Of a DNA stretch of 64,000 nucleotides, positions 52,668 through 55,303 are shown piece by piece. Positions within the stretch are counted from its first letter, which is position 1. The number at the start of each line of letters is the position of its first letter. The notes below the pieces were generated by a model that searched no databases, was not told the origin of the DNA, and saw only the letters and a program-made list of their open reading frames with translations. Both the position numbers and the translations under genes were made by a program. Source of the stretch: Candidatus Berkelbacteria bacterium (GTDB taxonomy: Bacteria > Patescibacteriota > UBA1384 > 2-12-FULL-50-11); the NCBI GenBank assembly GCA_016432625.1, contig CP066697.1, forward strand, positions 671,951 through 735,950, read 5' to 3'.

Positions 52668-53024
52668 TCAGCGTTTAGTCGTTCGGTTGAGGTGGTGCAA
52701 GTGGACCGAGCTCTCCTGAACTACCTCGTTGATACGACGATCCAAGTGATCGAGAACGGCGTAAATCCTATAGAGCAGATAGAAGATAATGACGATACTT
52801 AAGGTGAAGACTGCATCCTTGCCATCGCTAACGCCAAGGACTGAGGCTAGGAAATCAGCCTTGTTTGGCAAGAAGATAAAATAGGTCGCTAAGCCCCAGA
52901 CAAGCGTCCAGAATAAGAAGGCGCGCCAAGAAATAGCTCGCTCGCGATAGCGCAGCAATGCCCGCGACCAAGCGAAAACGAAAAACAAAGTAATGACAAT
53001 ATTGAAAGCGGTGAATCTAATCAT
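52668..53024 (-). CDS. DUF2304-family small membrane protein (GtrA-like partner of GT2)
   Basis: 118 aa with 3 TM helices. 'FNIVITLFFVFAWSRALLRYRERAISWRAFLFWTLVWGLATYFIFLP' matches the DUF2304 topology and sequence pattern. It overlaps the upstream GT2 by 4 nt. Confidence 0.6.
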   Translation of the reverse strand: MIRFTAFNIVITLFFVFAWSRALLRYRERAISWRAFLFWTLVWGLATYFIFLPNKADFLASVLGVSDGKDAVFTLSIVIIFYLLYRIYAVLDHLDRRINEVVQESSVHLHHLNRTTKR

Positions 53025-53740
53025 GACAACAGTCGCCTCATCATTAAGCGCCAGGTGATATTAAGACCGTTGAGGACGCGCTGGCCTTTGCGCAGGGAAT
53101 ATTCAGTGTAGATCGCCTCGATAGGAATCTCGCGGATTTTCAGCGAGTGGCGGCCGACTTCGCGGAAGATCTCCGTCGATACTTCCATCCTTGAAGGGAT
53201 GAGGCGAAGTTTCTCGACGGCTCTGGGGCCAAAGGCGCGCAAGCCCGACTGGGAGTCGGAGGTGCGGACGCCGGTGAAGACGAGTGTCAGGATATTCATG
53301 ACGTACTTATTGCCGAAGCGACGTAAGAACGGCGCGTCGCCGTCATCTTTTAACCAACGGGAACCGACGATGAAATCAGCCTTCTTCTTGGCGACCTCTT
53401 TCGCCATCGCTTCTAAATCTTTTGGTGAATGCTGGCCGTCAGAGTCAATAGTGATAGCGGCGTCAAACCCTTCACGACGGGCGATAAGCAAACCGGTGCT
53501 AATCGCGCCGCCCAAGCCTAGGTTGACGATGTGGCTGACAACGCGCGTGCCTTTCGAGCGAGCTATCTCGGCTGTTTTGTCTGAGGAGCCATCATCGATT
53601 ACTAGTAACTCGCACTGGAAACCGCTTCGACGCAGTTTCTTGGTCGTATCCAAAAAGCGGTCGAGAACTTCGCCGATGACTTTCGCTTCGTTGTAAGCCG
53701 GAATTATTACCGCCAGACGCATTTGGGGTGATGATAACAA
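53021..53740 (-). CDS. Glycosyltransferase family 2 (polyprenyl-phosphate sugar synthase, DPM1/GtrB-like)
   Basis: 'LAVIIPAYNEAKVIGEVLDR...IDDGSSDKTAEIA' and 'DSDGQHSP' are motifs of GtrB/DPM1-type GT2 enzymes. Confidence 0.85.
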   Translation of the reverse strand: MLSSPQMRLAVIIPAYNEAKVIGEVLDRFLDTTKKLRRSGFQCELLVIDDGSSDKTAEIARSKGTRVVSHIVNLGLGGAISTGLLIARREGFDAAITIDSDGQHSPKDLEAMAKEVAKKKADFIVGSRWLKDDGDAPFLRRFGNKYVMNILTLVFTGVRTSDSQSGLRAFGPRAVEKLRLIPSRMEVSTEIFREVGRHSLKIREIPIEAIYTEYSLRKGQRVLNGLNITWRLMMRRLLS

Positions 53741-53812
53741 ACCACAACAGGTTTAGCTAGAGTCTGGGAGATACAGTTAGCGGCGGCAAACTAGCTGGTA
53801 CAATCAGAGAAG

Positions 53813-55303
53813 ATGAGAACCCTTATTAACGCAAAGAGTTTTGAGCGTTATTTTGTTGGCGCCGTCGTCATTCTTTACGCAGCGTTTTGGATATATGTGA
53901 CGCTTAATCACGGCGCAGCCGTCCCCCCAGGGGACGACTCAAACTTTCACCTCAAGACGATTCGCGCCATCCTTGACGGTAAAGCCGCTAGCTCGCCCAA
54001 CTACCCCGTCGGCTTTCATTATCTCGCGGCTGGCCTGTCTTGGATTCTTAACGTTAATCCAGTCAAGTTATCGATCGGCATCTTCGCATTACTTTTGCCG
54101 CTCAGCTCCTTGGCGCTTTACTTTTCTTGTCGCGCTTTACTAGGAAGAACTGTCGCCCTAATCACCTTCGCCCTCTACACACTCATCTCTTTTCAACCGA
54201 TGCAGACGCTCTACGACGGCGGTCTGCCCAACGTTTTGGCAGCCGGAATTTTACTGCCGCTGTTTTTCGTTTGTTACTTAAAATTCTTAGAGCTAGCGGG
54301 GAAGGAGCGCTGGCGTTACGCTGCTTTTAGCCTGCTGTTGGCACTATTTATTTTCCTGACCCACCATTTAAGTGCCCTCTATCTAACCGGAGTGGTTGTA
54401 GTCGCTACGCCGCTGCTGACATTTTTTGCCAAACCAGGCGAGCGGCGCACTCAGCTTGGCTGGTTCGGCGTTGTTACAGTCGTCGGCATTGGGGCGTTGA
54501 TTATGAGCGGCGCGATTACTCCCACTGTTAATTTGGTACGCCAGGTTGTTTCGTTTGCCCCCACCTTCCCCTTTATTAGCCTGATCGGCGAGGTGCAGGA
54601 TCCGGGCTGGATCTACCGAAGTTACCGCGATTACAAAGAGGGGATCGGTCCGACATTGGTGATACTCGGCAGTCTTTATCCGCTAGCGTTCCTCGTGCTG
54701 ATGTGGAAACGACAGCTGAAGCGAGCTCACGTACTAATCCTAATCTGGCTACTATTACTGCTTATCGCCTCCCGCTTAAGCGGCCTAGGCGTTCCCGCGC
54801 GGGCCGCCAAAGACATGGCTCTGCCGCTCTCGATGGCCGGCGGCGTCTTGGTCGCTATGGTCTGGCAAGAGCGCTCTCATCTGTGGCGTCTCGTCGCTGT
54901 CGCCGCAACCGTTTGGGTTCTGATTGTGGGAGGGATCGACATGACTAATAAGTTCGTCCGCATTGATGATCTGACTAGGATGTTTAGAGTAACAAAGGCT
55001 GACGAGCAGCTACTGCGAGACGTCCCGGCCGGTTCTCACGTTGCCGTTTACGGCATTAGCCAGCTTTTGAGCCACCTTCGACCGGAAGTAAAATTCACCA
55101 ACCTTCATTCTCAGCAGGAGACCCCACTGAACGTTTGGCTCGGGGAGTTTGATTACGTGATTGTTGAGATGGGTGAATGGCCACATGTTCCCCCCGACGA
55201 GGAGCTGCTTCGGCAAATGATCGAAAGCCCGGAGCTCAAGATAGTCAGGTCCGCGAGCGACCGCTGGAAGACGCTCTATCTGTTCGAGGTTCGGAAGAAC
55301 TGA
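53813..55303 (+). CDS. Large multi-pass membrane protein (496 aa), candidate GT-C-type glycosyltransferase using a polyprenyl-P-sugar donor
   Basis: About 12 TM helices. A first-loop acidic motif 'PPGDDSNFH'. Adjacent divergent partner of the DUF2304 + GT2 pair. Confidence 0.35.
   Translation: MRTLINAKSFERYFVGAVVILYAAFWIYVTLNHGAAVPPGDDSNFHLKTIRAILDGKAASSPNYPVGFHYLAAGLSWILNVNPVKLSIGIFALLLPLSSLALYFSCRALLGRTVALITFALYTLISFQPMQTLYDGGLPNVLAAGILLPLFFVCYLKFLELAGKERWRYAAFSLLLALFIFLTHHLSALYLTGVVVVATPLLTFFAKPGERRTQLGWFGVVTVVGIGALIMSGAITPTVNLVRQVVSFAPTFPFISLIGEVQDPGWIYRSYRDYKEGIGPTLVILGSLYPLAFLVLMWKRQLKRAHVLILIWLLLLLIASRLSGLGVPARAAKDMALPLSMAGGVLVAMVWQERSHLWRLVAVAATVWVLIVGGIDMTNKFVRIDDLTRMFRVTKADEQLLRDVPAGSHVAVYGISQLLSHLRPEVKFTNLHSQQETPLNVWLGEFDYVIVEMGEWPHVPPDEELLRQMIESPELKIVRSASDRWKTLYLFEVRKN

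What the first reader, a model, noticed from the sequence alone, without database searches (positions are those of the whole stretch)
52668..55303. GtrA/GtrB/GtrC-like trio: DUF2304 + GT2 polyprenyl-P-sugar synthase + divergent large membrane protein
A small 3-TM DUF2304 protein overlaps a DPM1/GtrB-like GT2 by 4 nt. A 496-aa, roughly 12-TM protein with an acidic first-loop motif is transcribed divergently. This mirrors three-component periplasmic or extracytoplasmic glycosylation systems, where a lipid-linked monosaccharide is made in the cytoplasm, flipped, and transferred by a GT-C enzyme to a polymer or protein. The targets could include the pilins or the surface protein.
Basis: inference. 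Interest (0 to 1): 0.5.

Follow-up and report, generated by a model that had tools for sequence, protein, structure and literature searches.

The report
Three-part surface-sugar decoration module, CPR bacterium
In this Candidatus Berkelbacteria genome, a small enzyme pair that probably loads one sugar onto a membrane lipid sits next to a large, unannotated membrane enzyme that probably moves that sugar onto a surface polymer outside the cell; this is a well-known mechanism found here with a previously unnamed enzyme family.

Summary
All three ORFs exist as described, with the 4-nt ATGA overlap.

- **GT2:** it is a soluble polyprenyl-phosphate-sugar synthase of the DPM1/GtrB/ArnC/PpgS class.
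- **DUF2304:** it is not GtrA. It belongs to the GacJ/Rv3632 family, which published work shows binds and stimulates the partner GT2.
- **Family status:** it has no Pfam or NCBIfam home. An exhaustive search finds about 440 clusters, and every named genome hit is Patescibacteria.
- **Linkage:** 10 of 26 loci holding a family member also hold a PpgS-like GT2 + DUF2304 pair within 5 kb. The usual order is (Wzx→)GT-C→GT2→DUF2304.
- **Divergence pattern:** in the closest relative the pair is 73% and 68% identical, but the GT-C is only 30% identical. This matches conserved GtrA/B versus variable GtrC.

The best reading is a GacIJKL-type extracytoplasmic glycosylation module decorating a Wzx/Wzy-built surface glycan. 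The sugar and the acceptor remain unknown. This is a new member of a known kind, of moderate interest.

The parts
53021..53722 (-). Soluble GT2 polyprenyl-phosphate-sugar synthase, of the PpgS/GacI/DPM1/GtrB class. It is 233 aa from ATG 53722; the ORF as listed extends to TTG 53740. It carries a DSD motif at residues 99-101 and no membrane helix.
   Evidence: Pfam PF00535 gives 90 bits. NCBIfam PpgS gives 153.7 bits over the full length, followed by AglJ, DPhHxTase, PgfS and ArnC. PDB sequence hits are DPMS 5mlz at 2.6e-14, ArnC and GtrB. It is 23% identical to E. coli GtrB/YfdH, E = 4e-8. No TM segment was found. The start codon comes from the 73%-identical homologue.
52668..53024 (-). DUF2304 small membrane protein with 3 TM helices, of the GacJ/Rv3632 family. 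It is the presumed membrane-anchoring and activating subunit of the GT2, and its start overlaps the GT2 stop (ATGA).
   Evidence: Pfam PF10066 gives 64.6 bits against a cutoff of 25.5. Three hydrophobic segments were found. The overlap is seen. The GacJ-GacI complex and its stimulation, and Rv3632 stimulating PpgS, are reported in the papers read.
53723..53812 (.). 90-bp divergent intergenic region between the GT2 and the GT-C gene. It presumably holds both promoters.
   Evidence: The simple scan found no consensus sigma-70 site here.
53813..55303 (+). GT-C-fold membrane glycosyltransferase of an unannotated family. It is 496 aa with 11 TM helices, N terminus inside and C terminus outside, plus a C-terminal extracytoplasmic alpha/beta domain. 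The invariant residues D42, G136, H184 and R330 and the nearly invariant D135 all lie in outward-facing loops.
55344..56387 (+). 347-aa single-pass membrane protein lying between the GT-C and Wzx genes. It is an operon mate of unknown role and not a conserved part of the module.
   Evidence: It has one N-terminal TM segment. Only a weak Glyco_hydro_cc hit was found, E = 0.008, below cutoff. No homologue occurs in any of the other loci.
56434..57918 (+). Wzx/MOP-family flippase and candidate exporter of the lipid-linked sugar, the GacK equivalent. It could equally be the repeat-unit flippase of the cluster.
   Evidence: Pfam Polysacc_synt gives 121 bits, with MurJ and MatE hits as well. Wzx homologues lie directly upstream of the GT-C family member in L015, L019 and L020. 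The flippase role of GacK and of MATE ORF14 is itself only proposed in the literature.
48351..52632 (-). Four genes directly downstream of DUF2304 on the same strand, after a 35-bp gap. They encode a nucleotide-sugar 6-dehydrogenase, a GFO/IDH/MocA 3-dehydrogenase, a hexapeptide acetyltransferase and a DegT aminotransferase. This set resembles the WbpA/B/D/E route to UDP-2,3-diacetamido-2,3-dideoxy-uronic acid. It is a possible but unproven source of the donor sugar.
   Evidence: Pfam and NCBIfam hits are. The set is not conserved next to the module in other loci. The region is GC-richer, 0.58 against about 0.52. A promoter-like site in the gap leaves co-transcription open.

Best explanation
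This is a GacI/GacJ/GacK/GacL-type extracytoplasmic glycosylation module, a variant of the 'three-component' scheme, embedded in a large Wzx/Wzy surface-glycan locus of a Candidatus Berkelbacteria genome.

Proposed steps:
1. On the cytoplasmic face, the soluble GT2 is held at the membrane and activated by its DUF2304 partner. It transfers one sugar from a nucleotide sugar to polyprenyl (undecaprenyl) monophosphate. This step is inferred from homology and from experiments on homologues.
2. The lipid-linked monosaccharide is flipped, most likely by the Wzx/MOP protein in the GT-C operon. This step is inferred, and it is unproven even in the model systems.
3. The 496-aa GT-C enzyme transfers the sugar to an acceptor. 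It uses an outward-facing active site built around the invariant D42 in loop 1, together with D135, H184 and R330/R333. The fold and conservation are shown here; the chemistry is inferred.
4. The acceptor is most likely the Wzx/Wzy-assembled surface polysaccharide encoded around it, decorated as a side branch. This is inferred from context only.

The identity of the sugar is unknown. An N-acetyl-hexosamine-type sugar is the best guess, because the closest characterised relatives, PpgS and GacI, use UDP-GalNAc and UDP-GlcNAc.
For: - **GT2 class:** NCBIfam PpgS gives 153.7 bits over the full length, and the other top hits are AglJ, Dol-P-hexose transferase, PgfS and ArnC. PDB sequence hits are only DPMS, ArnC and GtrB. 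It is homologous to E. coli GtrB. It has no TM helix.
- **DUF2304:** it scores above the Pfam threshold. GacJ is a DUF2304 protein that co-purifies with GacI and stimulates it. Rv3632 stimulates PpgS.
- **Active-site face:** D42, G136, H184 and R330 are invariant and D135 and R333 nearly so. All lie in loops predicted to face outward.
- **Linkage:** a PpgS-like GT2 (146 bits or more) plus DUF2304 lies within 5 kb of a family member in the window and in L003, L005, L015, L016, L017, L019, L020, L024 and L025. In L005, L015, L016, L017 and L019 the order is GT-C→GT2→DUF2304 on one strand with gaps of 46-120 bp.
- **A second synthase type:** L012 instead carries a full-length ArnC/PgfS-type synthase next to its family member.
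- **Independence of the loci:** the GT-C proteins in these loci are only 20-47% identical to each other, apart from one pair at 74%.
- **Reverse search:** starting from DUF2304, the closest homologue also has a family member in the same operon.
- **Divergence pattern:** between the window and L025 the pair is 73% and 68% identical, while the GT-C is 30% identical.
- **Flippase candidate:** Wzx lies directly upstream of the GT-C in L015, L019 and L020.
Against: - No biochemistry exists for any member of this GT-C family.
- Among the 15 loci with at least about 11 kb of sequence, 7 have no PpgS-like pair nearby: L001, L006, L008, L010, L011, L014 and L021. The family may therefore not always depend on such a donor, or the synthase may be encoded elsewhere.
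- The strongest structural matches are oligosaccharyltransferases, which use diphosphate-linked oligosaccharides.
- The Wzx protein could simply be the repeat-unit flippase of the cluster.
- The GT2 scores far below the PpgS equivalog cutoff, 153.7 against 370, so its sugar specificity is open.
Confidence: 0.7

Rival explanations
1. The donor chemistry is the same, but the acceptor is a protein. The GT-C would be a PMT-like protein glycosyltransferase that decorates pilins, a surface-layer protein or the neighbouring fn3 protein with the lipid-P-linked sugar. This would resemble the actinobacterial Ppm1/Pmt system.
Against: Every long locus with a family member is a polysaccharide cluster carrying Wzx, and usually Wzy_C. 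No pilin or conserved candidate acceptor protein recurs beside the GT-C. The protein lacks the MIR domain of PMTs, and its Pfam PMT hits are below threshold.
Confidence: 0.15
2. The GT-C is an oligosaccharyltransferase- or ligase-like enzyme. It would move a whole Wzx-flipped, diphosphate-linked glycan en bloc onto a protein or cell-wall acceptor, and the GT2/DUF2304 pair would serve something else.
Confidence: 0.07
3. DUF2304 is the flippase, which is the first reader's implied GtrA analogue. The trio alone would then be the complete three-component system, and Wzx would play no part.
For: DUF2304 is a small protein with 3 TM helices, similar in size to GtrA. No flippase has been demonstrated experimentally in any of these systems. 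Some loci with the trio have no Wzx immediately adjacent, for example L005 and L003.
Against: The protein gives no GtrA hit in Pfam. It shows no similarity to E. coli GtrA. GacJ and Rv3632 act on the synthase step in vitro, and GT2-DUF2304 fusions exist, which fits a subunit role. In the GAC cluster a separate Wzx, GacK, is required for the modification.
Confidence: 0.1
4. The 496-aa protein has a GT-C-like fold but is not a transferase. It could be a scaffold subunit like PIG-U, or a transporter, with the adjacency reflecting only shared membership of a glycan locus.
Against: An invariant aspartate follows TM1 in the first outward loop, with invariant or nearly invariant D135, H184, R330 and R333 also on the outer face. 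This is the pattern expected of catalytic GT-C enzymes. Catalytic GT-Cs score much higher than PIG-U.
Confidence: 0.05

Closest known systems
GacI/GacJ/GacK/GacL of Streptococcus pyogenes, which attach the GlcNAc side chain to the Group A carbohydrate
   Same: It has the same four parts: a soluble GT2 making a polyprenyl-P-sugar, an adjacent DUF2304 partner, a Wzx-family candidate flippase and a polytopic GT-C transferase. The matching parts in the window are documented. The order Wzx→GT-C→GT2→DUF2304 recurs in relatives.
   Different: The organism is a CPR bacterium. The surrounding pathway is Wzx/Wzy-type rather than an ABC-transporter rhamnan pathway. The GT-C belongs to an unannotated family. 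The sugar is unknown.
PpgS (Rv3631) / Rv3632 / Rv3779 of Mycobacterium tuberculosis, and Cgp_0394/0393/0658 of Corynebacterium, which add GalN to arabinogalactan
   Same: PpgS is the best NCBIfam match for the GT2, aligned over the full length. Rv3632 is the co-transcribed DUF2304-type partner that stimulates PpgS. A GT-C, Rv3779, performs the final transfer outside the membrane.
   Different: The GT2 scores 153.7 bits against an equivalog cutoff of 370, so it is not a PpgS orthologue. In the accounts read here, the mycobacterial and corynebacterial GT-C carries a distant locus number rather than a neighbouring one (Rv3779 against Rv3631/3632; cgp_0658 against cgp_0393/0394). Here it is adjacent.
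GtrA/GtrB/GtrC (YfdG/YfdH/YfdI) O-antigen glucosylation of Shigella, Salmonella and E. coli prophages
   Same: The overall logic is the same. The GT2 catalytic domain is homologous to GtrB, 23% identity, E = 4e-8. The synthase is conserved while the GT-C diverges fast: 73% and 68% identity for the pair against 30% for the GT-C.
   Different: DUF2304 is unrelated to GtrA. The GT-C family shows no sequence relationship to YfdI/GtrS, hhalign probability 0.5%. GtrB carries its own C-terminal membrane helices, whereas this GT2 has none and pairs with DUF2304.
Solved GT-C enzymes: AglB/STT3/PglB, AftA, ALG12/ALG9, PMTs and ArnT
   Different: Identity is 9-12%. A 136-sequence profile finds no sequence-level hit in the PDB. 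The family has no WWDxG motif, is smaller at 496 aa with 11 TM helices, and has its own conserved motifs: VPPGxD, QPxQxxxDGGxPN, THH and PxRxxRD.

Membership tests
GT-C glycosyltransferase superfamily (496-aa protein) | Polytopic membrane fold with the conserved GT-C helical core | tested here: met
GT-C glycosyltransferase superfamily (496-aa protein) | Conserved acidic residue in the first extracytoplasmic loop | tested here: met
   D42 is present in 136 of 136 members and D41 in 65 of 136. The loop after TM1 is predicted to face outward by the positive-inside rule across the alignment. Structural superposition on a known catalytic Asp was not possible.
GT-C glycosyltransferase superfamily (496-aa protein) | Uses a lipid-phosphate-linked sugar donor | not testable with these tools
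   The only support is indirect. A polyprenyl-P-sugar synthase gene is adjacent in 11 of 26 loci.
An existing curated GT-C family (Pfam DUF6541, PMT_2, STT3, PTPS_related; NCBIfam) | Score at or above the family's gathering threshold | tested here: not met
   DUF6541 gives 26.1 bits against a cutoff of 29, and there are no NCBIfam hits. Among 74 family members, 17 show weak DUF6541 hits, 8 PTPS_related, 2 PMT_2 and 2 STT3; at least 45 of the 74 show none of these four.
Oligosaccharyltransferase (STT3/AglB/PglB) | WWDxG motif in the C-terminal extracytoplasmic domain | tested here: not met
   None of 136 family members has the motif. The C-terminal domain is only about 110 aa.
GtrC / serotype-specific Gtr glucosyltransferase | Sequence relationship to a bona fide member (E. 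coli YfdI/GtrS) | tested here: not met
   hhalign of YfdI against the 136-sequence profile gives probability 0.5%. Only one GtrC type was tested, and GtrC proteins are heterogeneous.
Polyprenyl-phosphate glycosyltransferase GT2 (DPM1/GtrB/ArnC/PpgS class) | GT-A/GT2 catalytic domain with a DxD motif, most similar to lipid-phosphate-charging enzymes | tested here: met
   PF00535 gives 90 bits. A DSD motif lies at residues 99-101. The top NCBIfam hits are PpgS, AglJ, DPhHxTase, PgfS and ArnC. PDB hits are DPMS, ArnC and GtrB only. BLASTP against E. coli GtrB gives E = 4e-8.
PpgS (polyprenyl-P-GalNAc synthase) equivalog | NCBIfam NF058614 score at or above 370 bits | tested here: not met
   The score is 153.7 bits. 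The protein is a relative, not an orthologue, so no sugar specificity can be transferred.
DUF2304 / GacJ / Rv3632 family | Pfam PF10066 above threshold; small 3-TM protein; gene adjacent to or overlapping a soluble GT2 | tested here: met
   PF10066 gives 64.6 bits against 25.5. Three TM segments and the ATGA overlap are shown. The same pairing occurs in nine other loci.
DUF2304 / GacJ / Rv3632 family | Forms a complex with the GT2 and stimulates it | not testable with these tools
   This has been shown only for GacJ/GacI and Rv3632/PpgS in the literature.
GtrA family (PF04138) | Sequence membership | tested here: not met
   The Pfam scan at E<=0.01 returned no hit other than DUF2304. BLASTP against E. 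coli YfdG/GtrA gives E = 0.93.
Three-component / GacIJKL-type extracytoplasmic glycosylation system | Lipid-P-sugar synthase, candidate flippase and GT-C encoded together | tested here: met
   All of these lie within 52668-57918. The synteny recurs in divergent genomes. No function has been demonstrated.

The most novel reading that the evidence does not exclude
This family of about 500-aa proteins would be a new CAZy-level GT-C family largely confined to Patescibacteria (CPR). Its fast-evolving members would set strain-specific surface decorations that govern episymbiont-host or phage recognition. In this window it could transfer an unusual sugar, a 2,3-diacetamido-2,3-dideoxy-uronic acid made by the four genes downstream of the GT2/DUF2304 pair, from a polyprenyl monophosphate carrier. 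I know of no example of that donor type, though I did not search the literature for one.
Probability: 0.15. Interest if true: 0.55.

Novelty: new member of a known kind. Interest (0 to 1): 0.35.

Why it matters
CPR/Patescibacteria are ultrasmall bacteria, and all cultivated members live as episymbionts attached to other microbes. Their surfaces mediate host attachment, yet their glycosylation processes are described as unexplored (paper read).

This work gives about 440 'hypothetical protein' clusters a concrete, testable function as GT-C sugar transferases fed by a GacI/GacJ-type lipid-sugar synthase. It identifies the residues to mutate: D42, D135, H184 and R330/R333. It also shows that the GT2-DUF2304 partnership, known from streptococci and mycobacteria, extends to CPR bacteria.

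The pattern of a conserved donor-making pair with a fast-diverging GT-C suggests serotype-like surface variation. The mechanism itself is textbook, so the advance lies in annotation and hypothesis, not in concept.

Tried and rejected
- **Shallow structure prediction:** AF2 with the 3-sequence alignment gave pLDDT 54.9 and was unusable. It was replaced by the 136-sequence model.
- **Word-indexed homologue search:** it found only 2 real relatives of the GT-C and 1 of DUF2304. This suggested a near-orphan, but the exhaustive profile search corrected it to 440 clusters.
- **Sequence search of the PDB:** profiles of 3 and of 136 sequences gave nothing meaningful. The same was true for DUF2304.
- **Locus search with the 136-sequence alignment:** this alignment was too diverse for the search for related loci, so a 25-sequence subset was used instead.
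- **afdb50 fold library:** it was unavailable. I could not place the family relative to GacL, Rv3779 or other unsolved GT-Cs.
- **347-aa neighbour:** I considered it a fourth component, but it has no homologue in any other locus.
- **WbpA/B/D/E-like genes:** I considered them a conserved part of the module, but they are not conserved with it.
- **683-aa, roughly 13-TM protein at 36766-38817:** I considered it a second member of the family. It is not: hhalign probability is 35% and jackhmmer found no hits.
- **Promoter and terminator scan:** the counts did not exceed those in shuffled sequence.
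Full report
**Source.** The 496-aa product is identical to a hypothetical protein, HZB70_03225, of a Candidatus Berkelbacteria (CPR/Patescibacteria) metagenome-assembled genome.

**Observation.**
- The 118-aa ORF, 52668-53024 on the minus strand, matches Pfam DUF2304 at 64.6 bits against a cutoff of 25.5. It has three hydrophobic segments.
- Its ATG overlaps the TGA of the upstream GT2 ORF as ATGA.
- The GT2 ORF is listed from a TTG at 53740. A 73%-identical homologue begins at the equivalent of codon 7, so the real start is probably ATG 53722, giving 233 aa.
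- The 496-aa ORF, 53813-55303 on the plus strand, is divergent across 72-90 bp.

**The GT2.**
- Its best curated matches are all enzymes that charge a polyprenyl or dolichyl monophosphate with one sugar. They are PpgS at 153.7 bits over the full length, AglJ, a haloarchaeal Dol-P-hexose transferase, PgfS and ArnC.
- Its only sequence relatives in the PDB are Pyrococcus DPMS, ArnC and GtrB.
- It aligns with E. coli GtrB/YfdH at 23% identity, E = 4e-8.
- It has no membrane helix. GtrB is 306 aa, and its alignment to this GT2 ends near residue 185. From general knowledge of GtrB/ArnC-type enzymes, that C-terminal extension carries their membrane helices.
- It falls far below the PpgS equivalog cutoff of 370 bits, so no sugar specificity can be transferred.

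**DUF2304.**
- Pfam finds no GtrA match. BLASTP against E. coli GtrA/YfdG finds nothing, E = 0.93.
- The literature is explicit about this family. GacJ of Streptococcus pyogenes is a DUF2304 protein of 113 aa with three TM helices. It co-purifies with the GT2 GacI and markedly stimulates GlcNAc-P-undecaprenol synthesis.
- The mycobacterial homologue Rv3632 is co-transcribed with PpgS and stimulates it. GT2-DUF2304 fusions also exist.
- DUF2304 is therefore best read as the membrane subunit and activator of the synthase, not as the flippase.

**The 496-aa protein.**
- The word-indexed searches made it look like a near-orphan, with two relatives. The exhaustive profile search found 440 representative clusters at E<=1e-3 and 235 at E<=1e-10, nearly all about 500 aa long.
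- It has no curated family. The only Pfam hit is DUF6541 at 26.1 bits, below the cutoff of 29, and NCBIfam finds nothing. At least 45 of 74 members scanned have none of the four GT-C-related Pfam hits.
- A three-sequence alignment gave a useless model with pLDDT 55. A 136-sequence alignment gave pLDDT 93.6 and pTM 0.93.
- Foldseek agrees: all 28 hits with E<=1e-3 are GT-C.
- The model has 11 membrane helices and a C-terminal alpha/beta domain of about 110 aa.
- Across the 136-sequence alignment, the short loops assigned to the cytoplasm are rich in Lys and Arg. The short loops assigned to the outside have almost none. This gives an N-in, C-out topology.
- The invariant residues G40, D42, G136, H184 and R330 all fall in outward loops. 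So do the nearly invariant H46, Y64, D135, R333 and P338.
- This is the expected picture for a catalytic GT-C with an acidic residue in the first external loop.
- It is not an oligosaccharyltransferase in the strict sense, because none of 136 members has a WWDxG motif.
- It has no sequence relationship to the E. coli GtrC-type enzyme YfdI, hhalign probability 0.5%.

**Genomic linkage.** I collected 25 further loci holding a family member.
- Loci reached from a GT-C family member came from protein look-ups (L001, L002, L010, L011), a genome scan (L003-L009) and a metagenome scan (L012-L024). All seven loci from the genome scan are from Patescibacteria.
- L025 was reached independently, starting from the DUF2304 protein.
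- A PpgS-like GT2 (146 bits or more to the window's GT2) followed by a DUF2304 gene lies within 5 kb of the family member in the window and in nine other loci. These are L003, L005, L015, L016, L017, L019, L020, L024 and L025. Pfam confirmed the DUF2304 assignment.
- In L005, L015, L016, L017 and L019 the order is GT-C→GT2→DUF2304 on one strand, with gaps of 46-120 bp.
- L012 instead has a full-length ArnC/PgfS-type synthase of 321 aa, scoring 179.9 bits, beside its family member.
- The GT-C proteins of these loci share only 20-47% identity, except for one pair at 74%. The linkage is therefore old and has been kept repeatedly.
- Seven long loci lack such a pair nearby. That leaves room for a synthase encoded elsewhere or for another kind of donor.
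- A Wzx gene lies directly upstream of the GT-C in L015, L019 and L020. This gives Wzx→GT-C→GT2→DUF2304, the counterparts of GacK, GacL, GacI and GacJ.
- In the window the Wzx gene at 56434-57918 lies two genes downstream of the GT-C.

**Divergence pattern.** In L025 the GT2 is 73% identical and DUF2304 68% identical to the window's proteins. The GT-C in the same operon is only 30% identical, over 326 residues. A conserved donor-making pair with a fast-diverging transferase mirrors the Gtr systems, where the GT-C is the serotype-specific component. It fits an acceptor-specific or linkage-specific enzyme.

**Context and acceptor.**
- The window from about 30.9 to 63.9 kb is one large surface-glycan region. 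It holds three Wzy_C proteins, two Wzx proteins, several GT4 and GT2 enzymes, two asparagine-synthase-type amidotransferases, an epimerase and a methyltransferase.
- All 15 loci with at least about 11 kb of sequence contain a Wzx gene, and most contain Wzy_C.
- This points to a polysaccharide rather than a protein as the acceptor, but it is context only. The pilin idea is neither supported nor excluded.
- Directly downstream of DUF2304, after a 35-bp gap, lie four genes resembling the WbpA/B/D/E route to a UDP-2,3-diacetamido-2,3-dideoxy-uronic acid.
- They could supply the donor. However, they are not conserved beside the module elsewhere, the region is GC-richer than its surroundings, and a promoter-like site sits in the gap.

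**Comparison with known systems.** The module works like the three-component extracytoplasmic glycosylation systems. It corresponds most precisely to GacIJKL and to PpgS/Rv3632/Rv3779. It is not a member of the GtrA or GtrC sequence families. The GT-C belongs to the GT-C superfamily by fold, but to no curated family.

**Verdict.** The DUF2304 role is corrected and the acceptor is left open. This is a new member of a known kind. Interest is moderate at 0.35, mainly because it gives a function and test points to an unannotated family. All hits from named genomes are from Patescibacteria, apart from longer relatives of about 700 aa from Chloroflexia and Streptosporangiaceae. The glycobiology of this group is essentially unstudied.

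Noticed in passing
window 48351-52632 (-): Four consecutive genes look like the WbpA/B/D/E pathway to UDP-2,3-diacetamido-2,3-dideoxy-uronic acid: a nucleotide-sugar 6-dehydrogenase, a GFO/IDH/MocA dehydrogenase, a hexapeptide acetyltransferase and a DegT aminotransferase. This stretch has GC 0.58 against about 0.52 around it, which may indicate horizontal acquisition.
   Followed up: partly
window 36766-38817 (+): A 683-aa protein with about 13 membrane helices has no Pfam hit. It is not detectably related to the GT-C family studied here, with hhalign probability 35% and no jackhmmer hits in the other loci. It may be another uncharacterised membrane glycosyltransferase or polymerase in the same glycan region.
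   Followed up: partly
window 32041-33231, 60060-61250, 61243-62493 (all -); 41688-43175 (-), 56434-57918 (+): One glycan region holds three Wzy_C-family proteins and two Wzx-family flippases. This suggests more than one polymer, or a polymerase together with a ligase or O-oligosaccharyltransferase.
   Followed up: no
window 38797-40662 (-) and 46488-48329 (+): Two asparagine-synthase-type glutamine amidotransferases lie within the glycan cluster. They may amidate uronic acid carboxylates, as WbpS-type enzymes do; that comparison comes from my own knowledge and was not tested.
   Followed up: no
window 52631-52659 (-): A near-consensus sigma-70-like site, TTGACA-17-TATTAT with 11 of 12 matches, lies in the 35-bp gap after DUF2304. 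Its -10 element abuts the annotated ATG of the dehydrogenase gene. That would imply either a leaderless transcript or a different start codon. The overall promoter-like count is no higher than in shuffled sequence.
   Followed up: no
window 53722 vs 53740 (-): The GT2 ORF as listed starts at a TTG. The 73%-identical homologue in L025 starts at the position of the ATG six codons downstream, so 53722 is the likelier start.
   Followed up: yes
window 55344-56387 (+): A 347-aa single-pass membrane protein with only a sub-threshold glycoside-hydrolase-like hit sits between the GT-C and Wzx genes. It has no counterpart in any of the 25 related loci.
   Followed up: partly
L003 16851-18818 and L016 12502-14385: Two Saccharibacteria-type loci carry a second, longer paralogue of the GT-C family, 655 and 627 aa, a few kb from the first. 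In L016 it lies next to a second, AglJ-like GT2. This suggests duplicated donor/transferase pairs.
   Followed up: no
L001 7994-9937: In the locus of homologue P0003, a 647-aa PMT_2-type GT-C lies immediately upstream of the family member. That locus also holds Wzm/Wzt ABC-transporter genes and rhamnose-synthesis genes, but no DUF2304 pair.
   Followed up: no
proteins P0138, P0149-P0154, P0161: About 700-aa relatives carry an N-terminal extension of about 190 residues before the region that matches the family profile. One such cluster is from a Chloroflexia bacterium. A more distant partial hit of 731 aa, P0005, is from Streptosporangiaceae. The family therefore has longer relatives outside Patescibacteria.
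   Followed up: no
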